Position numbers and translations under genes: made by a program. The notes under the pieces are model-generated. The model did not search any database and had not been told where the DNA came from. It worked only from the letters and a program-made list of their open reading frames with translations. 64,000 nt of DNA, taken from positions 42,470,001 to 42,534,000 of the forward strand of contig CM114271.1 of NCBI GenBank assembly GCA_050084515.1, in the 5' to 3' direction. Source of the stretch: Blasia pusilla (taxonomy: Eukaryota). Shown piece by piece: positions 2,968 to 48,853 of this stretch. Position 1 is the stretch's first letter. Every line of letters starts with the position of its first letter.

Positions 2968-3259
2968 TGCTAAAGAAGCATAACTGATGGGAACACTCAC
3001 ACACCACCATGGAGAATAAAATTTGCAATGAGAGAATGAGTGGAGACTCATCCCCTTCTCAATTATATAGGATATGTACAAGCAACCCTAACCCTAACCT
3101 TAACCATAGTCTTGAGTTAGACTAATTGTGATTAACTAAACCTAGTTAAGATAATCGTGCTTTACTGACTAACCAAGATTAAGCTTCCCTACTTCGTGTG
3201 AGTACCAAATGTAGCAGTTCAGGTGTCTCATGAGGTTGACTGTAACTCAATCTTCAATA
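2968..3259 (-). repeat. 3' LTR of the copia element
   Basis: Directly follows the PPT (TGAGGGGGAG); matches 7849-7972 and, in inverted orientation, 34021-34250. Confidence 0.85.
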
Positions 3260-6200
3260 CTCCCCCTCAAACTCATATCGATATCTCTAACGCCTAAATC
3301 ATTTCTAAACATCTCAAACTTATCTCTAGACAATGCTTTTGTAAAGATGTCAACAATTTGTTGATCTGTACTTATATACACAAGATTAATTTCTCTTGTA
3401 AGCACTTTCTCTCTGATAGAATGATAGTGCACCTCAACATGTTTAGTACGAGCATGAAACACAAGATTATTAGCAAGCTTGATGCTATTAATATTGTCTG
3501 CATATATTACACTAGGTCCTAAGTTACTAACACCAATCTCAACAAGTAATCGATGAAGCCACACCGCCTCACATGCTGCATTGGTTGCTCCTCTGTACTC
3601 AGCTTGTCTTGAAGATAAATCAAATGTAGGTTGCTTCTTTGAAGCCCAACTTATAGGTGCGCTTCACAAAGTAAAGGAATAACCAGATGCGGAATGTCGA
3701 TCAGACACGCTTCATGCCCAATCAGCATCTGTGAATCCATGTAATTGAAAACTCGGAGAAGGTTCAAATTGAAGCCCAAATTGAATAGATAATTTCACAT
3801 ACCGCATATTCCTCCTCACAACATCAAGGTCAGGGTTTCGAGGTGCTTGCAAAAACAGGCTCACTAGACCAACAACATAGCTCAAATCTGGTCTGGTATA
3901 GTTAGATATATCAAATTTCTAACCATGCGCCTATACATATTAGAATCTGCAAGTAACTCTTCTTCATCCACTCTTAGCTTCACACTCTTGTTCAACGGTA
4001 TAGAGATTGGCTTACAAGCCTTCATACCTTATTTTGAAAGCATATGAAGAGCATATTGTCGTTGTAATAACCACATGCTCTCTCTAACCTTGATAAACTC
4101 TATACCAAGGAAGTACTTGAATTCTCCCAAGTCCTTCATATCAAATTCTGCTTGTAACTTAAGCTTGACTTGTTGTACCATTTCTTCAATATTCCCAGTA
4201 ATCCTGAGATCGCCAACATACAACACAATGAGAACCGTATGATCTTGTCCTGTTAAGACATATAACGAAGAGTCAGAATCACATATCCTAAAACCCAATT
4301 CTTGTAGGACGTATGTAATCTTGCCATACCAAACTCTTGGAGCTTGTTTAAGCCCGTATAGAGCTTTCTTCAACTTGCATACGCGAAATGGAAACTTGGG
4401 ATGCTCATATCCAGATGGTTGAGTCATATATACCTCCTCGTATAGATCTCCATTCAAGAAGGCATTCTTGATATCCATATGATGTAATCTCCACTTCTTA
4501 CTTATTGCAACTGTAACCACTGTTCTCGTAGTCGCCATCTTTGCAACTGGGCTAAATTTTTCCTCATAATCAATGCCATATTGTTGTTCATAACCCTTAG
4601 CCACCAATCTCGCTTTGTATTTGTTAATTATACCATCTTGATTGCGCTTGATTTTGTAAATCCATTTGCAACCAATAGCTTTTTTACCAGAAGGTTTATC
4701 AACCAGCTTCCATGTCTGTTGTTGTCTCAATGCAGCAAGCTCTTCCTCCATAGCTTCAATCCATTCCACTTTACTTGCAACTTCTTCAAAAAAACTCATC
4801 TCCTGTTCTTGAAGGATAGTCATCATATGTGCATGATGATTCCCAAAGAAACCTTCATTTATGAATCTATGAACTAGATGTGTAACTCTATTTGATCTAC
4901 AAAGTCGTTGTTAAGAGGTAGATGCCTCTGATTCTTGACTCGAGCTCTGACTAGTGTCAACAGACTGGATACGTACTCTTCCCATCCATGGACTCACGGA
5001 TTTAACTGATGAATCTAGGACCTCTGCTAATCTTGCACTAGTACTTGGGGAAGTTGAAGACAATGTTTGTTGGTTTATAGTCATATTCTCCCCCTCAACA
5101 GATGAGTTTAGAGGTGGAATAGGCTCAGATGGAATTAATCAAAGACAATATCCCGACTAATGTTAAGCTGCCTAGAGGATGGAATATAGCACTTGTAACC
5201 CTTAGTTCAATCATCATAGCCTATGAAGATATATCTTTCAGACTTGGGGTCTAATTTCTGATGTTTCTCAGAAGGAACATGAGCATAACAAATACAGCCA
5301 AATACTTTCAAGAAGGAAAAATCAGGTTTACTTCCTATGAAGACTTCGAAAGGATTTTTATCATGAACTCCTGCTCTTGGAGTTCAGTTGATTAACAAGA
5401 CTGCACATGCTATAGCCTCTACACAATACACCTTATGCATGTTCTTCTCATTTAGCATAGCTCGCGCCGCTTCAACAATATGTCGATTCTTCCTCTCAGC
5501 CACTCCATTTTTTTGTGGAGTGTAACGGCAAGTCACTTGATGTTGGATGCTATTCTGACGTAAATAGTCATAAAACTCTGTTGAAAGATACTCTCCTCCT
5601 CCATCACAACGCAATGTCAGAATGTGTTCTCGAATCTGCTTCTCTACTAGAACTCTCAATGTTTGGAACATTGAGAATACCTTTGACTTGGCTTTCAGAA
5701 AGTATACCCATATATACCTAGAGAAGTCATTAATAAATGAAATAAAGTACTGGCAACCACTAAGGCTATGTTGTGATGTTGTCCATACATCATTGTAGAT
5801 CAACTTCAATATCCTGGATGTTCTTCTACCTTGCTTTGGTAAAGGAAATCTAGTTTATTTTCCAAATTGGCAAGCAGGACATACCTTTGACGTAGTATGA
5901 CTCGCTAATTTAGGGAGTCCTATTACTATATTATATGATGAAAGACTCTGTAATCTTTGAAGATTCATAGTCCAATTCTTTTATACCACACATTTAGATG
6001 TGAAACTTGTTGGCCCGTTTGACCATACATTGTTGTTTGAATCTCTGGCATAGAAACATCTAATTTGAACATTGTGCCAGGTCTAGTTCCTTTGGCTATC
6101 GTAGTCAGGTCATCCATTGTTTCAATGAAACAACCATATGCGTTAAACTTCACTTGATAACCCTATTCTACTATATGTCCTACAGAGATCAGGTTTCTTG

Positions 6201-7972: not shown

Positions 7973-9826
7973 GTACCTGCTTGCTAGCTGCTTGTACAGT
8001 CCAAATGATATAGCCCGGGGCATGTCCAAAATCAGCAGGATGGCACTGGATTTCACCAGCTCTAGAGTGTTTGCCTAATGCATCTTCACCACGTTCGTTG
8101 CATTCTACATGTCCATTTCTACTCAATTTGCACCTTCAATTCCTCCTCTATCTTCCTCGTCTCAAACATCCACGCGTTTTGAACGTTGAGAGAAGATATT
8201 TCCTTGGCTTCTCACAAGCTCGTCCATGGCGATGAATAAGCCAATTTCATTGAGTATCCATCTTTGGATCACTCCGTCTCAAACAGAAAGGTCAATTCTC
8301 TGAAGTTTCTCAAGTCCAACGGAATTAGGGTTCAATGGCAATGAAGGTGCTAGAGGTTGCACAAGGATTTCAACATGGTTCATGCACAACATGGCTGACA
8401 TATAATATCAAGATTAGTAGTCAAGAGATCCACATGGCGATTGCTATTGTGAGTCTCGACAAATCCCTCTAGACTTCACCTCGGATCCTATGCTATAGAT
8501 GAGCATAGCACGGACGTTCTTACCAATAGTGTCACCACTATGCGGCCCTCGTGTTGGTTTTTTTTTAAATCCAAGAAATACTAACAAGGTTTGGAGAAGC
8601 ACTAATATAGCAGAAGACAGTAACATGGCGTGGAGAACATAAGTTAGAGAGCACTGAGATGGGAAGCAACACTACTAATACGAAAAAAAACCTAACTAAT
8701 ACTAACACGGAGTGAGTCAAAATGGCTCACATGTCTATTCTCATCCAATTCACATTACTCTCACCTAATTCACATCCGATTCACATTATTCTCATCTATC
8801 GTTGCAGAAGTTGCGTGTGCACTCCGAATCGACTCCCCAAAATTCCACAAATAATTCGTGGCAACATGCGAAAGAGAAAGATTACCAATTAATATGGATA
8901 GTTATCCAATGTATTCCCTTCAAGTTCCGTTTTTCATACGCATAGTATGTTATATGGATTCTTAGATCTTGCTTGTGTATTTAATGGTTGAGCTTTCCAT
9001 TTTCCACTGCTATAATGAAATATTATCAAAAGCTAACTAATTGTTTTTTCCATTTGGCACAAAAATATGCATTGGTAGATCTTGATCCTAGATCCTCCTA
9101 GTTATGCTTTTTAAGTAGGGCTACATTACCAATGCTATAATTAGCAGTTAAGTGTTGGAACTTAGTCAATTCCATTCTAACTTTTAGGGGAATACCCCTT
9201 AGGTATGGATTCTAGTGGTTATACTTGTGCTCTTCATGTTCGAAAATTAAGTTCTTTGATGTTTGGTGGAACCTTTTACTTAGATTAATGCTCTTACATG
9301 ATATTCTTATCTATCTCGTACGTTACCATTGGCCAAGGGTTTAGGTTTATTTCAATTTAAAGATTAATTTTTTTCTAACTAAGTCTTATAAAACATGTAG
9401 GTTTTTGTAATATTTTAGCATTATCAAAAAAATATCAAGAAATAAATATTACTTGGTATGGCGTTAAAAGAGGGAAATTGATGAGTTTTCAATACTACTC
9501 TACAATATTACTGAAAATTGCATGCATAATAATGAGAAAAATATTACTACAAGTTTCTTAATGGAATTATAGAGAAATCATTTTTCAAAATGAATATGTG
9601 GATGTGATACTTGAATGAAGAGATGAAAACGAAAGTGGTTCAGATCCTACATCCCACAACATTCCATAACATTTCATGTCCAAAAAGAATGAGAAAATCT
9701 TCAACCCCTTGCTATATCTCGACCTTAATTGTGAAAAGTAACATTATTATGCCAAAATATTATAGTGACACACAATTTGATTTCATATCTATTCTCTTGG
9801 AAAATAGAAGTCTTTCGAATTAAACA

Positions 9827-10450
9827 CTAGTAATGTCTTGCCCGCGCGATGCACCGAGTGAGATGATTGGGAATGAAAGGACTCACATATGGAGGATGAT
9901 TATGTGAAATTAGTGGACATATGATGAATAAAGTTTAATTTTTGACAAGATGACAAAAAATAAGAAAGAGAGATTTTTTTTAATAATACATCTAACTTGG
10001 CTCAAGAAAATTTTTCATATATTTTCCTTTATTAATTTTGGAAAAAATATTTTATCCTTGTCCAATCCCCATCTTTCAATAAGTAAAAGAAAATCACTTA
10101 TTTTGATGAATTTTTTCCCCAAAAGAGTGATTAAATTTTTCTCCCAATCTAAATTGAAAATTAAAACGAATATAGAAATAAAATTTCTTCCATTATTTTG
10201 AAGAATAATTATTTTCCCGTTAGTGTCCTATTATCCTTTCCATTTTTTTCCCACAAGGAAAATTAATTTTCCCTCAAAAATGAACTTTAAATTATTTTTT
10301 TATAATTTTTCTGGCATGAACCTTGGAAAATTAATTTTTACTTTTTAAACAAGAAAAGATAATAAAAATGAAAGAGACATTAGAAGATTTCATCGATGCA
10401 GATTTTTTATTCTGGTTTTATTTTAATTAATTTTTAAAATATTAATATAA
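9827..10450 (-). mobile_element. Non-autonomous Helitron (3' end)
   Basis: Minus strand ends ...CTCGGTGCATCGCGCGGGCAAGACATTACTAG|T (GC-rich subterminal hairpin, CTAG, then T). The AT-rich body is homologous to ~48400-48853 in inverted orientation. 5' end not defined. Confidence 0.75.
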
Positions 10451-18566: not shown

Positions 18567-18684
<118 letters not shown>

Positions 18685-19007
18685 AAAACTCACTCTCCTA
18701 ATGAGAGACTTAGGTTACTTAGAAGACAAGGAGAACCATAGCTCCACCACCTCATGCTAAGAGGTTTAACAAAGAGAGAATGAGGCCCAAGGCTCCCTTT
18801 CTTTGCATATACCCTCTTCCCTCTCCCGAGCTCTCTCCACGATAACCGGTGCTTGCAAATTTCCTCCTTGGCTCTTAAACCTGTTGTAGGCGTTGAAGGA
18901 CCACTTCCCAAATTGGAAAGTGAACTACAGTCATAATATCAACTTACTCAAAATATTAATTTTCTTAATATATATCCAAATGAGCCAAAAGAAAGGGGAA
19001 TCCTACT

Positions 19008-22000
19008 CAACGTCCGGAGAGAACCAGCAAATAGTGTAAAGTTGGTGTGTTATAATCCGAAATTGACGATGCCCAAGAAATTTAGATGGATGAGATTCCG
19101 ACTTCTTCAAGGGATATTCCGGCAACTGGATGGCCGGAAATGTGCCGCTTGCCGGTCACGTCCCCCGAATTCTTTCCGGATTGCATTTTACGAAGGTCGG
19201 AATTTTTCTGGACGATTTTCAGGTGGTCGAAATAGAAGGTGAGAACCGTTAGATTCTTATCAGGAGATCTTGGCCATCTGAGGTAGGGCAACCGCAACGT
19301 TAGGATTCACAGTGGACTCGGGAGTCGGGAGTCACGATCGTTCAGAACTTTGGGGAGAGTTAAGGCCCAGGAGAACGAGTCACCGAGGGTTGCGAGGCCG
19401 CGAGGAGTCCATTCCTCAGAATACAGACTTTGTGCTCGAGCGAATCGAGCGACTCAAGCCTGGAATGTCATTTACGTCTCCACTCTACTATGTCTCCTGA
19501 GTCCCGTGCACATTATGCTTGTCCAAACTTTGAAGTGCCGAGTTTTTTTAGAGTTTCCAGTCAATTCCTCATAGTGAGTCCCTTACGCGGCTACTGCGGC
19601 GAAGCCCCACTAGAGAGTCAAGTGCTCGCGAGTTGGCTTCTTCGGACCAGTTTAGCTAGCTTTTCTCTATTTTTTCTGCACGAGCCTCAAATTTCATTTG
19701 CGTCTGCAGTGTCTTCCGAGTCCCGTGCACACTCCTGTGTGCGAAGTGCTGTTCCAAAGTTCTAAGTCTCTTCAAAATTTTGAGTCCCTGTTCGATTCCT
19801 CACCCTAGTTCACTGACACAGCTACTACGGCGAAGCCCTGGTCGAGAGTCGAGAGGAGGCATCCTGGGGGTTTTTTGGTTGTTGTCTAGGTTTCTGCTCG
19901 AGTGCTCAAGATTCGGCGTCCCGGGGCCTTTTCTACTATTATCCTTTTTATGCCCGAGCGTTGGGGACTTGGGAGTCATATTTTGGGGCCTTTCCGGGCT
20001 GTTCTCACTTTTTCTGCCTTGAGTTTCTACACTGATTAGTGCTCGGGAGTCCGCGTACTCGGGCCAGCTCGACTCTTTTGAAATTTGGCTTTTATCTTGA
20101 GAGTCCGAGAGTGTGGAGTCTGAGACTGAGTGCCGAATCTGTAACCTTGTCACCTTGCTTGAACTACTCAGACCTCGAGTGCTCGTTCTATAGCTTGAAG
20201 CCTCGACCACCACGTCTTATGTTGCAACTTTACGTTTTTTTGGATATTGCACTCTAGAGCTTTCATGTTTACACTTTCGTGATAGGGTTTAGGGTGCTTT
20301 GTTCGACTTGCCTAAGTTTCCTCTCAGCCTTAGCTTTGCTCTACTATGGAGAGTCAAAGGCCCTATTTTTCGCTCTTGATCTTGGTTCTGGGTCTGATTT
20401 GCTCTCGGGTTTGGCAGCACAAAGTGATTTTGCTTAGAGTCTCGAGTTTTCGACTTCGGCCTTTTGCTTTGAGTCTTGGACTCTTGACTGCCACCTTTCT
20501 TTTACTGTCAAATAGTTTTGCTCTTGTCCATAAAACGAGGCCTTGTGCCCTGCTCTCGTTTAGACCGAAACCTTTGTTAACCATTCATTGTCTCATACAT
20601 GGCTAAGAGACAGCGAACCATGAGCGAGATGTTGACCAAAGACGTTAGCCAAGACTTTCAAGAGAACTCAAGCCGGTCAGGGTCCTCATATGGGAGGGAA
20701 GTTGAGAATTTTGGTACTCCTTCCAGTAGTCTAATTGAGAAGAATCAACTGGCTTGGAAGGATGTCTAGTATAGCTTATTTGACTGGATAGAGTTTCATG
20801 CAAAATCTGGTAGAATATTTTGTAAGGTTTGTAGACAAGGAAAGGGTAAGAATTTCTTTGCAAGGTATGGTGCCATAAACTGTAAGGTTTCAGGCTTTAC
20901 AGATCATGGCAAATCCATTGAGCATATGAAACTTTCTTGGGATGCTAACATAGGAAACAGGTCGATGGCCAAGGCCATTGCCACTAATAATCGGACTTGT
21001 GACCAAGCCTTGTTAACATTGTTCAAGTGTGCATACTTCATTGCTAAGGAATCATTGGCTTTTGCGAAATTCCTGAATCTGTGTAAGTTGTTACTTTTAG
21101 TCAATATACCAATTACCCGAGATTTATACCAAGATAAGAAGACTTGTGTTGATATGTGTTATTATATCAGTCAGGTAGTGCATAGAAGGATACTTTTAAA
21201 AGTTCAAAAATCTCCTTTCTTTGGGATCATGATTGATGAGTCCACTGATATTTCAGTAACGGGCCATCTCGTTGTATTTGCAACTTACTTATTAGAAGGG
21301 CAGGTTGAGAATTCGTTCTTAGGATTGTTGCAATGTCCATAGAAGTGTTCAAATGCCATTACTAACAATCTTTTGGAGTTGATCAAGGACTCGAGACTAG
21401 AGAGTTCAAAGATGGTGGCTTTTGGATCAGACGGAGCCTCAACTATGGTAGGTAGTCAGAATGGAGTAGCATCTCAGTTGAAGTTGAAGGCAAACCCTTT
21501 TTTGCTCTCTGTTCATTGTGTTGCACATAGGACCAATCTTGCTTCTTTGACAGCAGCCAAAGGACCAGGTTGTAAAGATGTATCTATAGAGATTTATTCC
21601 ATCTTGAATTGTGTAGCTGGATATTTTAGAAGGTTCTCAAAGAGGAAGTGTGCTCTTGCAACTTTGCAAGAGAAGTTGAATGACTCTCAGAAGGTCATGA
21701 AGAGATATCATAAAATTCGTTGGTTGTCTCGATGGCAAGCCGTGACTACTTTGTGTAACTCCCTGGAATCTATCCTAGCCTATTTTAGGGATATTCCCCG
21801 TTGTGAAGACGATGGTAATGCTACTAACATGTACAATAAGTTGAGATCATTTGAAATGATCTATCAATTGTACTTTTTGGCAGACATATTGTTTATCCTT
21901 GCTAATTTGAGTAAGGTTTTCCAATACAAATTTGTAGATATCAGTACTATTGGTAGTATTGTGAATTTTGAGATTGCCTCTATTATAATAAACTTTGTAA

Positions 22001-23319
22001 TGGAGAATCATGACTTTAATGCTTCTACATTCTCTGAAGAAAGAGGTTTTCATCTCTTACATGATTTTGGATCCCCTGGTGGATACTTGAAACGATTGCA
22101 ATATGAGATTAGGGGTAGAAAGTTCCATAGCATTGAAATGTTGAGAGATCGTACGGGAAAGGATTTACATGCTGCTCTAACTTTCCAGAAGAACTTTGCT
22201 GAGAATGTATGTGTACCCTTACATGATAGATTTAGGGACAATAGTTTGATAAGTGCAATGAAAATTATGAATCCTCTTCATATGCCCTCAAGGTTAGTAG
22301 GATTGAATAGTTGGGGTTGCAAGGAAGTGGATGATCTTTGCGCACAATTTGGAAGGGAAACGCCTTTGAGGGTTCACTTGCAACCACTTCTTATGAATTC
22401 AGCAAGTGTGAAGTCAGAGTTTCAATCATTTAAGCTCATGGCCACCACAGAATGGAAAGATATAAACTTTCGAGATTTTTGGGCAATAGTTAGTTGGAGC
22501 CCAACCAATCGATTGACGACTAAGAATTTAGATGTTGTTCTCAAGATAGCTTTAGAGGGTAAGATACTTGATTATGAGGATTTGTTGGTAGAATCAGTAA
22601 TCCTTTGAAAAAATTCTGCTAACTTTAGATATGTGTATTCTAATCCAGAGAGATATGTGAATGGTAAGGATGATACTCCAATAGAGGTTGCAAATATAGA
22701 GGATTCTCCAAGTACACCAATTTCAAATGTTTAGTCGGTGGGAAGAGAGAGATATGAGAGGTCCCTTTTATAATACATTAAAGATTTGTTCTAAATCTTC
22801 AATGTATTATGAAGGGGTAGGATCCGTGGCTCCCGGTTGGGTGGAGTCCTCGCTAGGTTCAATTCTGCCAAGGATGTTAAATGTGGGTTATAGCAAGGGA
22901 GGAAAGAGTTTAGGGACCCAAGGAGATGGAACTGGGAATTAGAAGAATTTAACATGGAGTGAACTGCGTTTCTTACTTATGTTTATAATGCAGAAATTCA
23001 TTGAATTGAATTTCTGCTTCCTTATTTCATTTTTTTGAGCAAGAAATAGCAAAGGTGAAAATGTACACTGGGAAGAAAAAAAAAGCCGGTTGAAATTCTG
23101 GCGGCCGGAAATTTTCGGGGTTGTCTGAAAAGTTTGTGAAATCTACCGGGGAAATTTTTAAAAAATCGGATAATCACTGGAAAATAAATAAAATCTCATA
23201 AATTTTCCGCCTAAAAAAGTCGTAGCCTTTTTTTGCCGACTATCTTTTCCCAAAAACCGTTGTACTTAAAAGCTTACTGGCAACCAGCGGGTTTCCGCCA
23301 AAAAGCTCCCTGGACCTTG
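19008..23319 (+). mobile_element. hAT-superfamily DNA transposon with both termini
   Basis: Perfect 8-bp TSD ATCCTACT at 19000-19007 and 23320-23327; imperfect TIRs CAACGTCCGGAGAG / CTCCCTGGACCTTG; CCGG-rich subterminal regions; internal transposase. Confidence 0.92.
20599..22734 (+). pseudogene. hAT transposase (ZNF862/DUF4371-like with N-terminal TTF-type zinc finger), inactivated
   Basis: Single frame from ATG 20599: FDWIEF...IFCKVC...H..S..H zinc finger, FGIMIDESTDIS, FGSDGASTMVG, SVHCVAHRTNL, IRWLSR. In-frame stops at ~20767, 21340 and 22606; the segment that normally carries the CERGFS motif is missing. Confidence 0.88.
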
Positions 23320-24075
23320 ATCCTACTCTCTCAAGTTACATGAGGCCTCAACAAGTCATCTTCGATCTTTTGAGGTTGTCCTCCAAACTTCTCAAAGGTG
23401 CACTGAGAATACTCACAATCCATCCTAAAAGATGTATCTTCTCCCTAAGAAGCCTTGGATAATAACCTTTGACCATTCTCTCAATGTTTCTCTCTTAAGA
23501 CAAAGTAGAATAGTTAATCCCTTGATATGCCTTCCGAATAGTTTCTTAGCTCCCAATATCCAATATATATGGTCATACAAAAATGTGGTTAACTCATAAT
23601 TCCAAGACTCAAGTGGGTGCCCATCTTGACGTATGTCATTTAGGATCACATGGTTGGTCTTTTCATCCTTTGCGTTTTGCAACTAGTCTCATGGGGTTGT
23701 TTCCCATCCCAGTGTTGAAATCGAAATTTTACTTCTCTCAGATCTCACTTTTAACATTTTCAAAGCATAGAAAGAGAGTAGATCTCTACAAGATCTTCCA
23801 CTGAACCATGTACATGAGGGTAATCACTTACAAACCTGAAAGAGCAAATCTAAAATAGATTGCATGCAGAACTAGTCCAAAACTTCTTTTGAGAATTGGG
23901 TGCTTGGAAAAGCAACACCTTATTGTAATATACAAGACTTGAAGAGAGGTGGTTGAAATCAAGATACATGAGTATGTGGGAGATAGGTTCTTGGAGCATT
24001 CTCCACACCACTACATTCCTTCTTAGTTAATCAAGCCACAAACAGGGGTTCAAATATGTAGGAGCTAATCTTAAG

Positions 24076-24163: not shown

Positions 24164-25599
24164 CTAGAAGGTGTTAGCTGAAGGGAAGGTGCAAGGACCA
24201 ACATTTTTTATAGGAGGAGACCAACACATCAGGCCAATGCACCATACATAAGCCAACACACTATGGGCAAGGCAAGACATTAGGCCAACAGACCAAGAAC
24301 ATGCCAACACATCATGGCTAATACACACGCAACATACCAATACAATAGAGGCATGCCAACACATCATGAGCACAATCAACATAATCAAAACTAACAAGAA
24401 TGGTTAAGAAATAACAAGTAATCTAAATAAAGTGAGAGACTTACAACCATGGTGAACTTCCTACCATAGTTTGTAGAACTAACCATAGTTAAAACTTGTC
24501 GTGCGAATAAATATCGCTGCCAACTTACTTCAACTATCATGAGCACAAGTCTAAACAAGATCCATCTAACTATGAATCCTAACATATTTACATTTAAATG
24601 ATTGGAAAAACCCAATATAAAGTTGATATGAACTTTAAACTCTAGTGAAATCTGTCATGAACCATGCTTCATCCAAACATCCATATCAATGATATAAATT
24701 GTTGCAACAGTAGGAGAAAGTATGCAAATAACTCTAAATGCGTGTGATCTTCGATCAATCCTAGCTTATTCTTCAAAAGAGAATCCAAGCTCAATATTTG
24801 CAGGTTGCAATGTATCAAGGATCCCAACATGGGTTTGATCCTAGGGAAGATGAGCTTTGAATGAGCTTCATCCGAGGTATGCCTCCTAGGAACCTCCATG
24901 GGTGACATGTACACATAGGTAACCTCCCTCCTAGAAGGTCACTAATGACATGTAATACAAAAGGTACTAACTCCCTAACAACTGCACATGTGATCTTCTC
25001 TTGAGACCAACTACCAACTTATCCTTGACCATATGGCTCCATATATGTATAGGAGGGTCAACCTCTCCAAGGTTACCACTCTTCATAAAGGAAAGGATGA
25101 CCTACTCTCCTAGGTCGTCTCCTAAGAGCAAGTCACACATGACCTCTCAAAATAGGGAAATACAAGACCCTTCTAGGGCCTCGATACTATCTCACCCTAC
25201 GCCTCATCTATCATGACAAATTAAATAAAAAAATTAAGGAAAGGTTTAGAATAGCAAAAATTTTATATGAAATCCTAACGTCCAACTACTCTTAACTCTT
25301 GTGTTTCTTGCCTTTACGTAGGAACTTCACTCAAAGATCCTCCACTTAGCGTTGGCCCCTATCTCCTAAAACTAGACTCGGCTTTGGTGTGTTTCACCAA
25401 AGTTGATTCTCCTTGGATCTCCCAGTATAACTCATATTTTGGGCCCCCGCTAGCATGAGTGCCATAGCCATCTATCCCTACCTACCATGACATACATCTC
25501 TCGGATGCTAAGAGCAAAAAGGCCGGGTGCTCATCGCCCCATCATTAGTCGCCTTCTTATCATCCATGTCACATACACAAGTTGGAATCTAGAACTACC

Positions 25600-25760
25600 T
25601 AATCTATGTACATCTGGGGCACATCCATCGTTCTCGAGGAACCCTAGTGAGAGATGGCGTTTAACATGCCATATGCCATCCTCTCGAACATCCATCATAA
25701 ACTAGCATAGTGGCTGCACCATAGGCGGAACCACTCAACATACATCGCAAACCTACAGAA
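25600..25760 (-). other. Degenerate PHD finger at the C-terminus of the gypsy integrase
   Basis: RCMLSGSAYGAATMLVYDGCSRGWHMAC, then after a frameshift PSLTRVPRERWMCPRC; fits the C4HC3 spacing of PHD fingers with two Cys lost. Confidence 0.75.
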
Positions 25761-28659
25761 ACTACTGCTAAGCTCGGATCAATTGTACCGTCAATGTTAG
25801 GAAGATGACATGGCGCACAATTACGCACATAGTCCTTCCAAACCATATCATTGCATCCCTCCAATAAGAAAGCACCATATGGTAAAACCTCATGCACTCT
25901 CAAGATAGTGCACCCTGGAGTCACATTCAACGTCATGGGTGCCGTCTACTGCAAGTAGACATAATCTTCCTAATGAAACCTCATGATAATAGGTCGATAA
26001 CCACCTCCCCGAATAGTTGCATACCTCAACGTATCCCGATGCTACGCAATGGCCAAGTTCTCAAACGCCATGGGCATGACTCTCCGAAATGACTCAACCC
26101 TCTAAGAACATGCTCGCATCCATACATCAGGGTCATTAAGGTTCAACACCTCACCAACATCTCGACAAATGGTCGTAGGTAAATCTGGCTCTCGGCCATA
26201 AAGCAATAAGTACGGTGAGAAATACGCTAAGGATGTCTACTTGCTGAATCTGTATCCCATCGCCAGCCACGACAATAGAAGGTCCCAATCTCCTAGGTTA
26301 CCTCTTTGCAAGCCATACTTGCGCAATCCTCTCTTCACCGTCTGCACAACCCTCTCCGCTAGTCCATCTCGCAAAGTGGTGTGGTGGTTGATCAACGCCT
26401 TATCACACAAGGATTGAAACTCCCAACGAAACTATGTACCTTAGTCTGTCAACACTTCAGCTGGTATGCCATAATGACTCAACACTCAATCTTGGAAGGC
26501 ATACGCTACTCCCTCACTATCCACTTCGAGAAATGCTCGAGCATCACCAACACATAACGACTATGATGCTCCGTCAAAGATAAAGGTCCAGCAAAATCCA
26601 AACTCCATCTATAACCTAAACCAAAGATCAAAAGTGGATGCAACTATGGAGTCGGAGCATTGAACAAGGCCTAGACCCGATCACAAACCATACACATGGC
26701 AATAAATTTGTGAATGTCAGTTTGCATGCCTCGCCACCAATATTGTATCTAGAGCAAGCTATACGACCACTTCACTCCAAAATGACCCAACTCCTCGTGA
26801 GCATGACATACCAAACGTGCTCTCTGCAAAGGATGAGGTAGTAAATACACTCTATCATCCTCCCAAACTTGCAAGAGATGTGTCCCCTCCCACCGAAACC
26901 GTCTAGCTCGCTATAGGATCTGATCTCGCTCTCTAGCACTCACTATGCTCGCAACGCTGCCAATACGCAAGTACTCCAAGACTACTCCATCGTCGTGAAT
27001 ATCTCCGCCACCAATCGTCACCGGCCTTTGGATCTAAGGACTCTCCATCAGACCTCACCATTGAAGTCTCAGCAATCTGGCTCTCCATAGCCAACAAGCC
27101 GAAATAGGCTAACGTGTGCCATCCTGGCACCAACTTCTCATCACTCTCTCCATGCCATCAAGATGTAGTCGCATCTCGCCGACTCGGGCATGGGTTACGC
27201 CTCAAACCATCTGCATCCTGGTTGAGCATCCCAACTCTATGCACCACTGGAAATCATACTCCTACAACAACAAAGCCCACCTTGCAAGCTTCCCTGCAAG
27301 CTTTTTGGAATCCATCAACCACTTAAGTGGTTGGTGATTAGTAATAATGTTAAAGGATTGCCGAAAAGATAACAATGAAATGTGCAACAGCCTACACTGC
27401 AACCAAGCACTCATTCTCATACGAGCTATATTTTGCCATTACAACGTTATTTGAGCGACTAGCCACCACGAACTCTTTACCATCATCGTCATGCTGGATG
27501 AGCACGGCTCTAAGCTCCAACATACTCCAATCAATATGCAACTGGAAAGGACACCCCGTGATTGGTCTCCTTAGTATGGGCGGGGACATCAATCTATCCT
27601 TGGATAGCTGAAATACTCTCTCCTGCTCATCCCCCCAGTGCCACTCGTGATCCACCTTGGTCAGCAAGGTCAGCGGCTTTGCAATCGAACTGAAACCCTT
27701 GACTTACCGTCAATAGAAGTTTGCCAATCCCATGAATGCATGAACTCGACTCATATTTGTAGGGCGTGGAATGCGTGAAATAGTCTCTACCTTTGTCTAT
27801 TGCACACCAAGGCCACCTAGGACCTGGGTATATCGTATGACCCAGGTACTCAATCTTGTCATAGAAGAACTTGCACTTGCTTGGATGTAGCTTCAGCCCA
27901 TGGAACTGCAATCGTCGAAACGCCTCCTCTAGATATCGCTCATGCTCCTCAATTGTGGCGCTAAAGACTACAATGGCATCAATTTAACACCTAGCAAAAT
28001 CCACATCCATGCTTGCCATGCACATCCTTCTTGGCAAGCATGGATGCATATTCTCCATGCGACATCTCCACTAGTTCTGCTCCAACCAATCCTGGCTCCT
28101 ACTCTGAATCAGAGCCCTCTCCATATCACTGTACCTACAGGGTCGTCAAAAGATCGACATTTTGCTCGACAAATCAATGCGGATCCTTGGACCCTTTAGC
28201 AACCCAAATCATGCATGCTAAATGCAAAACAACTCTAATAACTCCTAAGGAATTGATGTATCCGGCGCTACTCTCCTCCTATTAACTTAGGGCCCATATT
28301 TGGCTCCCAAGTCTCCATCGTGACTACGGTAGGACTCTTCGGCGCACGTGTTGGTGGTTGCTATGGTGCAATCCCGAATCTAACAGTAAAACTTGGCTGC
28401 TCCCCTATAGCCACTTGCAAACTCTGATCTCCTCCATGTACAGTACTTGGAACCATGCTCAATTTTGTGGCTATCATCTCCTGGAAAACCTGCAAAACAT
28501 CCCAAGAAGTCCAAAGGTGTCTCTCCTGATCATTCCTGGTGTGTCGATCTCCTCGCGTCTTGCCCCCAACCACTACCTCAATCATCTTGGTAGGCATGGG
28601 GCTCACCAACGCAACAATTGTAATCTGTCGCAACCTCAAACGACGTTGCTCAGCTACTC

Positions 28660-29625
28660 TGAAGTTGTAAATCCATGTCAAGCAGTTCAGGTCCATTTCC
28701 TGACCCAAGACATGATGTCGTAATGCCTCTGAAAGTGACGATACTTCCGTCACTTCTGTGGGGAATTCCATTGCTCGCTCTCGCTCATCGGCGTTGGGCT
28801 CCACCAACCGTTGTACTTGATCATCCCAAACCAAGCCGGGCCCAACCTCCTTGAATGCATAGGAAGCGTGAAAACTCACAAATGTGGGAAAGGCTGCTCG
28901 TGGCATGCCAATCTTGTTAACCACAATCAACGGCGGTCGATCATTGTGCCTCACCATCTGTGATCGACAATCTGGATCTAGAATAGAATCCACCAACAAA
29001 TGAGAGGGGCGCTCCACTCTTGTATACGCCCTCCGCAAAACCTCATGTGGCACCAAGTTGGTCCACCAAAGACACATGCAATGTACTCGTGAACCTACAC
29101 TCTCCGCATCCAACAACATTTTCGGGCTAATCCATGCGCACACCTGATGTGCACTCGTCACCACTCGAATCCTCGAATCGCCCAAAATTGACACATTCTC
29201 TAGAATGTTTGTTGGAGAACGGGACTGATGCTCATGCAGGTGTTGCAAGATCTGCATCATCTCCCAAAACAACATGGACCGAGAGTCAGCTAACACGCTA
29301 CCTTGGCCTTCACTCGATTGGCCTTGACACGACCAACCACCAATGACCAAATTTGTGGTCCCTACCTGCTCCAAGTCATGCGCCCCCAACAATGAAATGT
29401 CCCTCGGTACGGAACGCTAGGATCCCTAGATGGCACACATATACAACAAGTCGGGAAATCGGAGGCGTAACTGCGCCATATGGTGAAGTGAAGCACGGCT
29501 CGCAACATCATCAATCTCAACATATAGGTACTGTTGCACGCGCACTCCGCCTGCAAAACAACAACTAACCCAGTGTTGATCCCTCCAAAGAGATCCAACA
29601 CGCGAATACCCTCCTCTAGGATGCA
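28660..29625 (-). pseudogene. C5 cytosine DNA methyltransferase domain (DNMT3-like) inside the gypsy pol
   Basis: Motifs in canonical order: I IRVLDLFGGINTG; II YLYVEID; III RDI; IV LVIGGWSCQG (GGxPCQ); V SRSMLFWE; VI ILENV; VIII LLDA...SRVHCMCLWWTNL (cf. DNMT3 IDA..SAAHRARYFWGNL); IX ERERAMEFPTEVT (cf. EMERVFGFP..T); X RHHVLGQEM (cf. RQRLLGRSW). One frameshift and two stops near the N-terminus. Confidence 0.9.
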
Positions 29626-32600
29626 CCACACAATCGGGGTGGTGTCCTAAGGGGTCATAGTAGCACTCTTGGCTACCTCGGGTTCCTTTGACCCGTCACG
29701 CTCTGGTGCAAACGCCTCACTCCACGCCGTCTGCATGTGCTCATCAACTAAACGTCAGAGCTCTTTACTCCAGCCCCATAGTGCCACCTCTCCTCCACGG
29801 ATGATGCGGCTACCATAACACTCCTCTCCCTAGAAGTGTGAGGCGCAGGGTTGTCCTTTGCATGGACATGCCCCTCAATCAAATCATAAGGCCACATGAT
29901 GGCACTACTAAATGCTGCTTAAGTTGCCATCTCTCCTCGCCGTCCCTCAATCACTCCATCCGTGAATCGCACAGGTAATGAACAAAGTCGTCCATCACCG
30001 GACTACCATCCTGGTCCGTAGGACGCTGACTCCTCCCAATAATCCAAAGAAAACCCCATCGGGTGCAACACTGCTCCCCCAACCAAGACGTCGTAGGACT
30101 CTACATCGGTCACGATCACCTTGGCTCGCACCACATACTCATGTGTAGGATGTCTGTATCCTGAAGGGACAACGCTCCACATCGGCTCTCGTCAAGCCCA
30201 ATCCTCTAAATGTCGCTTTCCCCAACATCAAGGGTTGTGCTCCCAAATCCAACAAGACACGTTGCGGACTAAAAAATCTACCTCCTCGAGTCATCAATTG
30301 GAAGACCTTTCCCCGATTGTCCAGCAACACAACACGAGGAGAAGCCATGGCAAGCTCTATCGTAGGTCTAGCGGGCATCTCCGCCATCCTTGCAGCCACA
30401 ACCTGCCATGAATCTGAGGTGGACAGCCCGAGCATCGGCTCCAAGGGCAGATCCATCACCTCCTTTGCAATCACCTCTGAATATGATGCATGAACACCAT
30501 CTCCACACTCATATAGCGTAGCGGCCGACCGGAAAACCTCGGCAGGCATACCTCCCAACGTCATAACATCGGAAGCAGAAAACAAAGGAGCACGGTACAC
30601 CATCGTGGCCGCCCCCAACATCATGCTTGACACATGCTCCTCCCAAACATTAACAATAGGATTCGTTGCACTCGCTTCTCCCATCGCCCTCTGTGCTGCA
30701 CACCAACACCATCAAGTCTCCGAGAACTCTGATCATGACACATCGATGGGTTCCTCATCACCTCGAACAACGCGAAAGACTGAGGAAGCATGATATGTTT
30801 CTTGGCTTCCCCTCTTTGTGGATCCAACTCGACGGCAGCTCCATGTGTAACAACAATGGTTGCCTCCAAGTGAATAGTCACACACATCCAGCCAGGATCC
30901 TCCATATCTTCGGCTGCTCCATACGACGTCGATGCCACGGATTTGGCATCGGATAACCTCAATGCCATAGTGGAAATCTACTCTTATAATTTTTGTATCC
31001 GAGGAGCCATCCTAGCCTCACACCCGATATCTCCCTCGACGCGTCTAGGTGGTGGAACTCTACCTCCTCCATGGGCAACTCCACCAACCCCTCGGGCAAC
31101 TCCAGCTCCTCGTCCCCCAACGAGACCACCTGGTGCACAACCTCTAGGCCCACTCGGACCGACAACTCGTTCTTGTGCCCTCTCGGGCCCTCGGTCTGGA
31201 CGTAACTCAAGGTGTAGGCTGAAACACTTGGCGCGTGTGTGACCGTACCTCTGACAATAGTCACACTGATAATCCCCTGGTGCAGCACCATCTTCTTCTC
31301 CATGTTGAGGCACACATCCATGACCCTGATGATTGCAATCGCGTTGGTGATGGGCTCCACCACATGCCCAACAAATAATCATAGGCAGATGTTGTTGAGC
31401 CATATATGAAGGCACAAGTCTCGATGGCACAGCCTCCCGATATGCTCCTTGCGCTCGTGGTGCCACAGACCTATCTTGGAATCCACGTTGCTGCATTGGT
31501 GGTGCGAGCAATCGTGATTGCTCTCGCCTAGAACTCATGGTGGCTACGCTCTCCTCTGCCATGTTGCGCTCAATGATCATGGCGGTCCTAAAAACATTTC
31601 TGAACGTGGCTGTGGTGTTCATAAGAAGCATCCCCTCCCGCACCCGTGTGCGCAGAGTTCGCTCTAGCATCACGTACCATGACTAGATAGCGTGGGACTC
31701 GGTCACCCCTTGAGTGACATTAATCAACCGGTGCAAGCAAGTGTAGGCCTTAGGAAAACTCTCAATCGGGTGCCTCTGGGAGTTGTGGATGCTCCGCAAC
31801 TTCTCCGTCCGAACCCCTGGTAGCTCGTCCTCACCTCCGCAAAGAGCTCAACCACAGGGTTGAACTTGGGACAAACCTGACTAAACGATGCAACTGCTCT
31901 AGTGCAAGTTGGCCCTCCTAAAACATCACTAGTGGAAGAGGAAGAAGCCTCTTCTGACTCCTCCTCCTCATTGGGAAACAGTTTAGTCCGTGACCTATAA
32001 TATGGATCATAGTAGAGTCGCCATGCCTCAATCTCCTGGGCATATATGTGGGAGAACTCAAGGTAATCGTCCATGGGCGCCCCCTCTAAATGCTCGAACA
32101 TACCGTTCCATGCTCTAAATGGGTTGAACTCTCTGGAGTTCCTAGCTCGTTGTGAGTCACACCAACTCCTAAACTGTGCAATAAAGTTGTGCAACTCTAT
32201 CGTGCCTATAGCACGCGAAAACCTATGCGGTCCTCTATCCCGGTTTTCCATCTTGTATGCCCAACTTGTAGGACCACTAATGTGTGCGGTGAATCACTAA
32301 CACACTCCTCTACACGCTCCCCCTCTTATGAAGACGACACAAAAGGAGTCAAGGTGGTACCTCACGTGGAGACCCTTGAAACCTCGCGCCACTCCGCGTA
32401 AATCCTCTAGAGCTACCCTAAGGTCCACCACCTCGCCTCTCAAAGTCCCGAAAGGACTTTGAGAGGCAAGGTGGACCTGCGGCACGAGGGTCATCACGGC
32501 GTGATGACCCTCATGCCCCTCTCACACGATCACTCTCAATCTTGCGAGTAGTCACTAAATCACTCAAACTAACATGCGACACTCAATCTACACTCTCTCA

Positions 32601-33814
32601 TAGAGACTTGTGCTGTGCGGCAACAAGCGACATGGTGCGGCAAATCGACTGATCTATCATCTCATGGACAAAACATATCCTCAACTCTGGATATCCCACA
32701 CAGGTCTATGTCCCCTAAACCCACACATCAATGATGCTCTCTATATCTGCACGAAACCCAATATCCCCAAATAACTGCCAAATACCCAAAATTCCCTAAC
32801 AAGTGCAGGGAAAAAGACCAGAATGGGTAACCTGAAAAAATGTCAATCGCTCCTCAGTAACTGAAACCTCAACCCCAACTCGGTCATGAAGAAAAACTCC
32901 TCCAATCAGCAAGTATTACTCCCCTAGTACTGACGATGCTCAAATTTCCTCAATGTGCGGTGCGGGTCCAACAGTACGGTGTGGTACTGGCGGCACAGAA
33001 CGACACATCACTCAAGAATGGGGTGCAGCACTCAGCGGCATATCCTCCTTTGTAAAAAAAACAATCTGATGTCCATTGATGGAATGGCTCTACGATCGAG
33101 ACGGTGCGGTGCGGTGCGGCCACAAGCGGCACCGCGTGACAATCGACGGCGCGTTGCGGCTACGGGCATCACAGCACGGTACTCGATCATCGGCAAGCGG
33201 CTGCCAATCACTATACATAGCGGAGCAAACAAGGAACCCACGACGCCATCAATCAAAATGTCACCTCAAACATCACGGCCGAGTTGGGGTCGAGAGAGAG
33301 CTTGAGAGCTCATTCTCTCTATGTAAATCAATGACATCTCTCTCAACATCTCACACCAAGCTCTCCATGGTGTGCACTCTCTCTTATGTCAAACCAAACC
33401 CACTCTCCTAATAAGAGGCTTGGGTTACACACACAAGGCAAGGAAGACCATAGCTCCGCCGCCTCATGCCAAGAAGTTCAACAAGGAGAGAATGAGCTCT
33501 CAAGCTCTCTCTCTTGGAGGTATATCCCCTTCCCTATCCCAAGCTCTCTCCTCGGTAACCTATGTTCCTAGGTCATCTCCTTGGATCTTGACATGCTGTA
33601 GCAGGTCAAGGGCAAGTTCCCAAAGTAGAAAGTCAACTTACTCGAAATAGTAAGTTTCTCTATATGGCTCCAAATGAGCCGAAACGAAGGTGGAACCTGC
33701 TCTCTCATGTTACTCGTGGCCTCAGCAGGTCATCCTCAATCCCCTGAGGTTGTCCTCTAATATCTCCGAAGGCGTTTTACTAGATCTTGTCAATCTATCC
33801 TAAAAGACGTAACA

Positions 33815-34260
33815 TTGTGTTTCATGCTTGAACATAATATGTTGAGGTGCACTATCCTTTTATCATAGGAGAAAGTGCTTGCAGGAGAAATTGATCTCGT
33901 GTATTTACCCACTCATCAGTCAATTTCTAATTTCTTTACAAAGGCATTTTCTAGAGATAAGTTTGAGATGTGTAGAAACAATTTAGGTGTTAGAGACATC
34001 AATTTGAGTTTGAGGGGGAGTATTGAAGACTAAGTTATAGTCAAACTCATTGGACACTCGAACTGCTACATTTGGTACTCCCATAAAGTAGGAAAGCTTA
34101 ATCTTGGTTAGTCCGTTAAGTGGGACTATTTTAACTAGGGTTAGTTAATCATAATTAGTCTAACTTAAGACTATGGTTATGGTTGCTTATACATACCCTA
34201 TATATTTGAGAAGGAGACCAGCCTCCATTCATTCTCTCATTGCAAAATTTGTTAATGCAT
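33815..34260 (+). mobile_element. Copia fragment (RNase H end, PPT, 3' LTR), same family as 2968-7972
   Basis: Reverse-complement match to ~3020-3465; PPT TGAGGGGGAG ends at 34020 and the LTR starts TATTGAAGA at 34021. Abuts the gypsy LTR terminus. Confidence 0.88.
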
Positions 34261-47899: not shown

Positions 47900-48853
47900 A
47901 GGTATTCAAATAATTTTTACTTTTGTTTTAGATGAATTTAAATAAAAAATCGAATCTCAAATTCTTTTTACCTCTTTTTCAATATCAGTTTAATTTTCAT
48001 TTTTAAAAATAAATTCTTATTTCAATATGTAAGAAAAAAATCATAAATTTTAATTTTAAATTAATTTTGGAAAGGAAATTAATTTAGAAGAATGTTATTT
48101 AATCTCTTTTTCAAGCTTCAATTTTGAGGGATTTTTTAAGAATATTTTGAGATAAACTTTGGATCACAATGAGTGAATTTTTTTACTAATTGAGAAAATT
48201 TTAAGACCTTATCAAATTTATCCATGAATTCTAGAATTTTTAAATTTTCACCCTAAAAAGAATGGGTAAAGTTTTATTAATAATGAATTAATTATAATTA
48301 ACTCAAATTCAAACATCTTCCATGATGAAATCTTTTAGAGTCTTTCGGTCTTTTTAATCTTTCCTCATTTGAAAATTTAAAATTATTTTCTTAAGGTTCA
48401 TGTAAACGAAATTGAAAGTTTAGTTTTGAGCGGAAATTAATTTTTCTTTTGGGAAAAATGAAAAGGATAATAGGAAACTGATGGGAAAAGAATTATTCTT
48501 CAAAATAAAGGAAGAAATATAATTTCTCTATTATTTCCAAGTTAGATTGGGGGAAAATTTAATCCCTCTTTTAAGTGATTTTCTTTTATTTATTGAAAGA
48601 CAGGGATTGGAAAGGGGATAAATTAAATTTTCAAAATTAATAAAGGAAAATATATGAAAAATTGTCTTGAGCCAAGTTAGATGTATTATAAAAAAAATTG
48701 ATCTATCTTATCTTTTTTCATTTTTTTTTAATTAAACTTTATTCATCGTGTGTCCTCTAATTTCACATTATCATCCTCCATATGCGAGTTTTTTCATTCC
48801 CAATCATCTCACCCCGAGTCACCCAGTGCATCGCACGAGCAAAATATTACTAG
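47900..48853 (+). mobile_element. Non-autonomous Helitron (3' end), same family as 9827-10450
   Basis: Ends ...CCCAGTGCATCGCACGAGCAAAATATTACTAG|T; very AT-rich body; 5' end approximate. Confidence 0.75.

What the first reader, a model, noticed from the sequence alone, without database searches (positions are those of the whole stretch)
25600..25940. PHD finger rather than a chromodomain on the integrase of the DNMT-bearing element
Seen: a C4HC3-like pattern follows the GPY/F-like module, and I see no chromodomain after it. Known: PHD fingers read histone H3 tails, and animal DNMT3 uses a PHD-like ADD domain. Inference: one element carries both a chromatin reader for integration targeting and a DNA methylation writer.
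Basis: partly seen in the sequence, partly recalled or inferred. Interest (0 to 1): 0.7.

Follow-up and report, generated by a model that had tools for sequence, protein, structure and literature searches.

The report
Bryophyte retrotransposon: methylase, leaky stop, PHD
This is a broken copy of a very abundant jumping gene of a moss-like plant that carries both a DNA-methylating enzyme and a histone-reading PHD finger, but a conserved leaky stop codon separates the two, so the enzyme is probably made in bulk with the particle protein while the PHD rides only on the rarer integrase.

Summary
The PHD finger is real (Pfam PF00628 above cut-off) and ends the integrase frame; no chromodomain follows. 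This copy is dead: 6 of 8 ligands and an internal stop. 17 of 30 genomic copies have all eight. The PHD is not special to this element. It marks a green-lineage Ty3 clade, from chlorophytes through Klebsormidium and Coleochaete to Marchantia, and a PHD is published for a Chlamydomonas Gypsy. The element fits the KnitGypsy-Dnmt3 kind (DNMT3-like domain, DIRS-like split repeats), here in a land plant, with at least 1,730 junction copies and transcripts. That stop is kept, with synonymous variants, in diverged relatives; a Klebsormidium-like branch has TGA-CGG instead. The PHD lacks an H3K4me3 cage and at best reads the unmodified H3 tip. New variant of a known kind; readthrough, targeting and methylation are inferred, not measured.

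The parts
33309..33814 (-). 5' terminal repeat A1 of the split-direct-repeat element (begins TG)
   Evidence: blastn to both A repeats of other copies, about 80% identity
30738..32293 (-). Gag-like region with zinc knuckles, broken by a frameshift and stops
   Evidence: tblastn with a relative's ORF1; CCHC-like motif
29880..30300 (-). aspartic protease region, frameshifted here; in frame with the DNMT in 5 other copies
   Evidence: Asp_protease_2 in relative L104 ORF1, below cut-off
28364..29637 (-). DNMT3-like C5 cytosine methyltransferase and linker; motifs I and VI present, motif IV Pro changed to Ser in this copy
   Evidence: PF00145; best solved matches DNMT3A/3B
28355..28363 (-). family-wide in-frame stop TAG followed by CAA CCA (CARYYA readthrough context)
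   Evidence: relatives
27300..28315 (-). reverse transcriptase and RNase H, with a deletion of about 310 bp near 28005
   Evidence: Pfam RVT_1, RT_RNaseH; gap against other copies
25970..26900 (-). integrase zinc finger and DDE core, one frameshift near 26520 and several stops
   Evidence: Pfam on an open copy; fold matches foamy-virus and Ty3 integrase
25805..25969 (-). beta-strand module at the position of the integrase C-terminal (SH3-like, GPY/F-position) domain
   Evidence: AlphaFold strands at model residues 242-292; intasome alignments span about 300 columns
25610..25744 (-). PHD finger, C-terminus of Pol; 6 of 8 ligands, internal TAA at 25663-25661; terminal stop at 25606-25604
25464..25603 (-). 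3' untranslated remnant; likeness to the family ends here, so polypurine tract and B1-A2-B2 repeats are lost in this copy

Best explanation
The window holds an old, dead copy of a Ty3/Gypsy-type retrotransposon family of a bryophyte (probably a liverwort), of the KnitGypsy-Dnmt3 kind: A1 - gag - protease - DNMT3-like - leaky TAG - RT - RNaseH - integrase - PHD - B1 A2 B2, inserted with 4-bp target duplications. SHOWN: domain order, family-wide in-frame stop and its context, purifying selection on PHD and DNMT between families, split repeats, transcription in the element's sense. INFERRED: (1) most ribosomes stop at the TAG and make Gag-protease-DNMT; a minority read through (about 10% in TMV) and make the RT-integrase-PHD extension. 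(2) The DNMT is therefore packaged in excess and most likely methylates the element's own cDNA in the particle or at insertion. (3) The PHD stays on the integrase after proteolysis and tethers it weakly to nucleosomes through the unmodified H3 tip (A1-R2), biasing insertion away from H3K4me3 promoters, with little K4 selectivity in this branch. Reader and writer act separately.
For: Stop: 1,730 exact genomic matches with TAG at the junction against 28 + 22 with other codons (49 sense, 1 TGA; TAA and TAY not counted); 147 of 150 protein matches have a stop inside. Relatives: of 80 metagenome loci 57 reach the RT start; of the 33 at 50% identity or more, 8 have TAG-CARYYA, 20 TAG/TAA-CAACCC, 3 another stop, 2 end at the contig edge; one more TAG-CARYYA lies below 50%. 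Four variants occur (CAACCA, CAACTA, CAGTTA, CAATCA) where the hexamer's background is 0.13-0.26%. L104 has 1,369 open codons (protease, DNMT), TAG CAGTTA, then 1,047 open codons ending in the PHD. No Met is conserved after the stop. UAG-CAR-YYA and UGA-CGG are the type I and II readthrough motifs (PMC3542737; PMC2754532). Two loci have TGA-CGG after the DNMT; one is 93% identical to K. nitens KFL_015960010 over integrase-PHD. RNA: 4,230-4,786 reads per run in 3 runs, strand-biased, over the whole element; none of the 15 joints shown (of 17) removes the stop and keeps RT. Selection: PHD pN/pS 0.065/0.64 and 0.22/0.69; DNMT 0.11/0.65 and 0.23/0.90. PHD keeps the equivalents of KDM5B L325, D328, P347, G349, W351 (G349 is Glu in the window copy); 0 of 206 homologues have Trp two before the His. 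Complex prediction with the host's own H3 tail: weak support, score 0.34, best of 3 controls 0.01, runs agreeing in at least 85% of contacts, partner pLDDT at least 53; this mark was reached by 51 of 78 solved and 2 of 108 mismatched pairs, but at 0.60 or under by only 5 of those 78 and by all 4 mismatches that passed of 180; like complexes are solved, so it may be memory.
Against: No readthrough, binding, methylation or insertion map was measured. The commonest relative context, CAACCC (20 loci, one branch), misses the last consensus base and is followed directly by ATG, which allows reinitiation; this family also has a Met 15 codons after the stop. P0003/P0121 inside the same clade, P0004, and a 10-row sister clade have no such stop, so it is dispensable in the wider lineage. 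Many metagenome loci are near-duplicates; independent branches with TAG-CARYYA number about four, on a quick tree only. RNA structure after the stop is inconsistent (z -4.4 to +0.2 in 6 sequences). The family's PHD is basic (net +3 to +6) against a median of -4 in the longer, mostly algal set, and lacks the equivalents of KDM5B D308 and E321, each worth 6- to 12-fold in affinity. KnitGypsy-Dnmt3 showed no activity in yeast, called inconclusive (PMC5890265 section 10). CpG is not clearly depleted in young copies (o/e 0.80-0.87, window 0.68). Within-genome DNMT pairs are near neutral (pN/pS 0.053/0.062 and 0.053/0.038). The RNA runs are from an organism carrying the family; only 14-30 reads per run are 99% or more alike to the copy used, and many reads come from decayed copies.
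Confidence: 0.68

Rival explanations
1. Reader-writer coupling: the PHD guides or activates the element's DNMT as ADD does in animal DNMT3, so that integration site and methylation are linked.
For: Both domains co-occur widely: DNMT in 114 of 120 long homologues, PHD in 102 of 120. In 80 of them the DNMT lies between RNase H and integrase, close to the PHD. The DNMT is DNMT3-like.
Against: In this family an in-frame stop and about 2.7 kb separate them. The PHD resembles KDM5/CHD4/BHC80-type fingers, not ADD. PHDs occur in many Chlamydomonas transposons (PMC8557442 passage), and no DNMT is listed in the Gypsy-7a figure legend.
Confidence: 0.12
2. The stop is a true ORF boundary and Pol is made by reinitiation or from a separate subgenomic RNA, not by readthrough; DNMT and PHD are then never on one chain.
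For: ATG right after CAACCC in 20 relative loci; Met 14-15 codons after the stop in this family and L105. RNA depth rises towards the 3' end.
Against: Frame is kept across the stop and four synonymous CARYYA variants recur. L102 and L104 have no Met before the RT start. No cluster of RNA starts near the stop is listed (table 6). The 3' rise is also what poly(A) selection and truncated copies give.
Confidence: 0.15
3. In this branch the PHD no longer reads histones; being basic, it binds DNA or serves as a structural end of the integrase.
For: Net charge +3 to +6 in 30 copies; acidic residue at Cys3-6 in 1 of 16 nearest homologues against 60 of 102 in the longer set.
Against: The A1 pocket and R2-binding Asp are conserved (Asp after Cys3 in 191 of 206 homologues); weak pass with H3.
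Confidence: 0.2
4. The junction stop is a lesion inherited from a defective master copy that spread non-autonomously.
For: Copies in this genome are decayed, with many stops.
Against: The same stop sits in families only 53-79% identical in Pol, including otherwise open ORFs; downstream domains are under purifying selection between families.
Confidence: 0.03

Closest known systems
KnitGypsy-Dnmt3 of Klebsormidium nitens (de Mendoza et al. 2018, PMC5890265)
   Same: Intronless DNMT3-like domain in a Gypsy element, DIRS-like repeat structure, purifying selection on the DNMT. K. nitens proteins KFL_015960010 and KFL_005000010 carry integrase plus PHD and are 51-55% identical to this family.
   Different: Here in a land plant at thousands of copies. 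The paper places the DNMT in the Pol ORF; here it is on the Gag side of an in-frame stop. The text and the three supplements held as text do not mention PHD; Fig. 4c, which I could not see, may draw it.
Gypsy-7a_cRei and REM1 of Chlamydomonas reinhardtii (PMC9940879; REM1 paper not held, known through citing passages and recall)
   Same: Gypsy element with a PHD finger, proposed to act on chromatin; Gypsy-7a insertions were intergenic 2.6 times more often than chance.
   Different: No DNMT is listed for Gypsy-7a; ordinary LTR pair; position of its PHD not seen. I did not compare sequences with either element.
Chromoviruses (Tcn1, Chlamyvir and others, REXdb, PMC6317226)
   Same: A chromatin-reader domain at the integrase C-terminus.
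   Different: PHD, not chromodomain; no DNMT, PHD or split repeats in the REXdb main text (0 occurrences of PHD or methyltransferase).
TMV-type (UAG-CAR-YYA) and type II (UGA-CGG) readthrough; retroelements with in-frame stops (MuLV, Tca2, SIRE1, RIRE2)
   Same: Single in-frame stop with a readthrough context setting the ratio of structural to replication proteins.
   Different: The upstream product includes protease and a DNA methyltransferase; two different signals occur in one lineage.
EpiLTRs and DAM-LTRs (bioRxiv 10.64898/2026.05.21.726589); CopiaMBD (PMC6673714)
   Same: Retrotransposons that combine methyltransferases or methyl readers with chromatin-targeting domains.
   Different: EpiLTRs use a chromodomain and a DNMT4-sister enzyme, stated to be distinct from streptophyte Gypsy-DNMT3.

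Membership tests
PHD finger (PF00628) | score above Pfam gathering cut-off | tested here: met
   29.1 and 32.5 bits in the window, 33-35 in two open copies, cut-off 24
PHD finger (PF00628) | eight C4HC3 ligands in the window copy | tested here: not met
   6 of 8 and an internal stop
PHD finger (PF00628) | eight ligands as the family state | tested here: met
   17 of 30 copies complete; each ligand is the majority residue, lowest Cys3 19 of 30
H3K4me3-reading PHD | aromatic cage with Trp two residues before the His ligand (position recalled) | tested here: not met
   0 of 206 homologues; Gly in all 30 copies
unmodified-H3 reader, KDM5B PHD1 type | A1 pocket (L325, P347, G349, W351) and R2-binding D328 | tested here: met
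   gap-free match to 2mny with residue roles from PMC4225485; Asp in 29 of 30 copies
unmodified-H3 reader, KDM5B PHD1 type | acidic residues for K4 (D308) and T3 (E321) | tested here: not met
   small or non-polar residues at both places
unmodified-H3 reader, KDM5B PHD1 type | binding to H3 peptide | tested here: inconclusive
   weak support only, 0.34 against best control 0.01; peptides are outside the tool's calibration
ADD domain (DNMT3/ATRX) | sequence likeness to ADD and position next to the catalytic domain | tested here: not met
   no ADD chain among 60 shown of 86; opposite side of the stop
Chromovirus | chromodomain after the integrase | tested here: not met
Chromovirus | RT placed in the chromovirus clade | not testable with these tools
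   no REXdb or GyDB reference set available
KnitGypsy-Dnmt3 kind | intronless DNMT3-like domain in a Gypsy element | tested here: met
KnitGypsy-Dnmt3 kind | DIRS-like split direct repeats | tested here: met
   A1...B1 A2 B2 in genomic copies and in relatives L157, L171, L173, L177 (4 of 27 loci examined, most truncated); absent at the 3' end of the window copy
KnitGypsy-Dnmt3 kind | purifying selection on the DNMT | tested here: met
   between families pN 0.11-0.23 against pS 0.65-0.90
KnitGypsy-Dnmt3 kind | DNMT in the same ORF as Pol | tested here: not met
   same frame but separated by TAG; hence filed as a variant, not a plain member
KnitGypsy-Dnmt3 kind | DNMT phylogeny with the published K. 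nitens copies | not tested
   published sequences not retrieved; link rests on K. nitens integrase-PHD proteins and locus L134
Type I stop-codon readthrough | in-frame UAG followed by CAR YYA | tested here: met
Type I stop-codon readthrough | measured readthrough product | not testable with these tools
   needs a reporter assay or proteomics
Phygy (REXdb) | insertion preference for NCGN | tested here: not met
   0 of 8 exact 4-bp duplications fit NCGN (read; motif)

The most novel reading that the evidence does not exclude
An ancient green-lineage Ty3 clade, not described in the plant LTR survey text I searched and perhaps missed because of its split repeats, survives in liverworts at thousands of transcribed copies. 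It twice evolved a readthrough stop (UAG-CARYYA and UGA-CGG) exactly between its DNMT3 and its RT, so that an active de novo methylase is produced at capsid level. The element would then pre-methylate its own cDNA and, in excess, could write methylation in the host genome, while a PHD steers the integrase to H3K4-unmethylated chromatin.
Probability: 0.3. Interest if true: 0.8.

Novelty: new variant of a known kind. Interest (0 to 1): 0.56.

Why it matters
Transposon-borne DNMT3 in Gypsy elements was described from one alga with few copies, and its role is open. A high-copy, transcribed land-plant family, with a remnant in the model liverwort Marchantia (gene model Mp7g09570 joins protease end, DNMT, integrase and PHD pieces), makes the question testable. 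The stop position predicts which product carries the methylase and in what ratio, and so favours cDNA methylation in the particle over PHD-guided methylation. The PHD alone is an ordinary accessory domain of this clade and would score low.

Tried and rejected
Pfam on the uninterrupted 94-aa ORF missed the PHD. Reading the window's A-like repeat at 23436-23319 plus 19008-18666 as its 3' repeat: 72% identity to A1, about 2 kb too far, no B repeats; left unassigned. 24492-25222 belongs to a sister family. Splicing around the stop: no joint shown yields RT. Conserved RNA structure after the stop: inconsistent. CpG depletion as a sign of self-methylation: not seen. The careful tree did not finish in two runs; only the quick tree is cited, and the junction labels on it were assigned by me. 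Pairs with L040's DNMT contain frameshifts and several pairs are saturated at synonymous sites; these were not used. The first ligand count had an index error for three columns and was redone (corrected in 65). The run search listed no indexed holder on record as RNA; raw-read runs were laid instead. Earlier findings of this scan: three look-ups, nothing. The REM1 paper is not held. Literature searches that did not turn up a land-plant Gypsy with DNMT and PHD, or a readthrough stop in such an element; the library lacks most subscription papers, theses and figures, and preprint supplements are closed.

Full report
Observation. The - strand of 25744-25610 reads as a PHD finger once its internal TAA is read as X: PF00628 at 29.1 and 32.5 bits, cut-off 24. 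The copy is dead. Cys2 and Cys3 are lost, RT has a deletion of about 310 bp, frames are broken, and likeness to the family stops at 25464, before the polypurine tract. The family is large: 150 of 150 scored matches from 10,814 candidates. Of the best 30, 17 have all eight ligands without a stop, and 28 end one residue after the last ligand. One copy has RNaseH, integrase and PHD in a 786-codon frame with no chromodomain. An AlphaFold model of a natural 360-aa piece (mean pLDDT 82.6) shows an integrase core, a long helix, a beta module and a confident PHD; its best fold matches are foamy-virus and Ty3 integrases.

The element. Order in the copies: gag, zinc knuckles, protease, DNMT, RT, RNaseH, integrase, PHD. 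The DNMT's best solved matches are DNMT3A and 3B. Termini are not an ordinary LTR pair: a 515-bp A repeat starts the element with TG, and after the polypurine tract come B1, A2, B2, ending in CA. Of 12 copies whose two ends I could read, 8 have an exact 4-bp target duplication, 3 have one mismatch and 1 has two. A1/A2 identity is 92.5-99.0% in 7 copies, so some insertions are young; the window copy is about 80% identical to them. The legend of Fig. 4 in PMC5890265 (sections 9-11 read in full; passages; three supplements searched; figures not visible) describes KnitGypsy-Dnmt3 as having DIRS-like repeats and Gypsy domains, which matches.

Distribution. Integrase-PHD homologues number 216 and 364 in two searches, 120 listed each. 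A strict C4HC3 is present in 102 and 104 of them, and none lists a Chromo domain (accession PF00385, recalled). Named ones are Tetrabaena, Pleodorina, Volvox, Scenedesmus, Hariotina, Klebsormidium nitens, Coleochaete scutata (74%), Marchantia polymorpha Mp7g09570 (68%) and Calypogeia fissa (85% over 68% of the query). The host is therefore probably a liverwort (inference). A DNMT is found in 114 of the 120 long proteins: 80 between RNase H and integrase, 5 before RT, 29 unplaced. The DNMT-PHD pairing is thus old and clade-wide. PHDs in algal retrotransposons are in print: Gypsy-7a_cRei (PMC9940879, section 13 and passages), and passages in PMC8557442 and PMC6673714.

The stop. Between DNMT and RT, in frame with both, copies read TAG CAA CCA: 28 of 30 further loci, one TAA and one TCG; 1,730 exact genomic matches against 50 with another codon, TAA and TAY not counted. 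In 80 metagenome loci, 57 reach the RT start. Among the 33 at 50% identity or more to the query, all 31 with readable flanks have a stop within 35 codons: 8 TAG-CARYYA, 20 TAG/TAA-CAACCC, 3 other. Among the 24 below 50%, 19 have none in that span, 1 has TAG-CARYYA, 3 another stop and 1 ends at the contig edge. Many loci are near-duplicates. On a quick RT tree of 62 rows the TAG state falls in one 28-row clade (SH-aLRT 100) that includes this family and Coleochaete, with P0003/P0121 as stop-less exceptions (careful search unfinished). L104 has 1,369 open codons, TAG CAGTTA, then 1,047 open codons. L133 and L134 have TGA CGG just after the DNMT, about 106 codons before the RT match; L134 is 93% identical to K. 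nitens KFL_015960010. Both contexts are the textbook readthrough motifs (passages of PMC3542737, PMC2754532, PMC2194720). Against: CAACCC is followed by ATG, RNA folding after the stop is inconsistent, and nothing was measured.

Expression. Three RNA runs of an organism carrying the family gave 4,230-4,786 reads each on one copy at 88% likeness or better, covering all 30 bins, mostly with the first mate on +, which by the usual library convention is the element's sense strand. Depth rises from 10-40 at gag to 110-180 at the PHD end. Most reads are 90-95% alike, so many decayed copies contribute. Of 15 joints shown (17 in all), none removes the stop and keeps RT; one GT-AG joint from the 5' leader into the integrase core has 8 reads.

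Selection. Between families, PHD pN/pS is 0.065/0.64 (L104-L105) and 0.22/0.69, 0.24/0.66, 0.30/0.62 (own copy against L130, L129, L104); DNMT is 0.11/0.65 and 0.23/0.87-0.90. Within the genome, DNMT pairs are near neutral, as expected from decay after insertion.

What the PHD could read. The nearest solved fingers are CHD4, KMT2C/D, KDM5 PHD1, KAT6, DPF, BHC80, AIRE, BAZ2, UHRF1, ATXR5 and ORC1b; no ADD is among the 60 shown of 86. That most are unmodified-H3 readers is recalled, except for those named in PMC4225485 (passages). Against KDM5B PHD1, gap-free from Cys1 to Cys8, the family keeps the A1 pocket and the R2-binding Asp but lacks the acidic residues for K4 and T3, and it is basic. No homologue has the cage Trp (0 of 206). 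A complex prediction with the host's H3 tail gave weak support: 0.34 against a best control of 0.01, at the mark's edge, where a pass is more often wrong than right and solved look-alikes exist. I put H3-tip binding at about even odds and H3K4me3 reading as unlikely.

Mechanism and verdict. Most likely, Gag-protease-DNMT is the bulk product and RT-integrase-PHD the readthrough product; the DNMT acts on cDNA (as proposed in PMC5890265, where the K. nitens enzyme was inactive in yeast, inconclusively) and the PHD tethers the integrase. The PHD is known in kind. The land-plant, high-copy, transcribed family and the readthrough boundary were not found in ten literature searches; the exact-name search returned only the 2018 paper and a 2026 preprint (preprint passages, supplements closed; PMC12344493 and PMC6317226 passages). 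New variant of a known kind, interest 0.56.

Noticed in passing
L031-L045, B1-A2 junction (e.g. L033:9115-9125): The internal B1-A2 junction reads CA, two bases, TG, like the circle junction of integrase-type cDNA ends, while the polypurine tract abuts B1, not the TG end. This hints at a replication route through a circular or permuted intermediate; unexplained.
   Followed up: partly
window 19009-23318: Insert holding a ZNF862/hAT-like transposase remnant (20770-22608; zf-C17orf113 E 2.4e-9), flanked by a 9-bp direct duplication, splitting an older A-like repeat at 18666-19008 and 23319-23436.
   Followed up: partly
window 24492-25222: A+B unit of a sister split-repeat family; in L066 it follows an integrase 67% identical to the window's.
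   Followed up: partly
window 1-860 and 53307-53471: Further fragments of the family: a gag piece (89% to L046) and a piece of the 3' untranslated end.
   Followed up: no
P0172 (Marchantia Mp7g09570): Annotated as a host gene, but made of protease-end, DNMT, integrase and PHD pieces of this element: a mis-annotated or domesticated remnant.
   Followed up: partly
P0005, P0007, P0048 and other chlorophyte homologues: 89 homologues have a tail of 250 aa or more after the PHD; 36 show a methyltransferase motif-I-like word, and P0048 hits MethyltransfD12 weakly (E 0.003). Possibly elements with 5mC and 6mA enzymes plus a PHD, akin to the EpiLTRs of the 2026 preprint.
   Followed up: partly
L031:2054-8817 and 3075-4147: RNA joints: a GT-AG skip from the 5' leader into the integrase core (8 reads), which could give a short integrase-tail-PHD product, and a 1,071-nt skip inside RT (46 reads).
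   Followed up: partly
P0010, P0018, P0043, P0083, P0115, P0218: G-patch family PF01585 (name recalled) listed in six homologues.
   Followed up: no
L034, L038, L044, L050: Several copies are nested in, or abut, other copies of the same family.
   Followed up: no
window 3015-3464 / 33815-34253, 4287-5133 / 50589-51759, 9824-10432 / 48286-48856: Pairs of other repeat fragments in opposite orientation, 72-82% identical.
   Followed up: no
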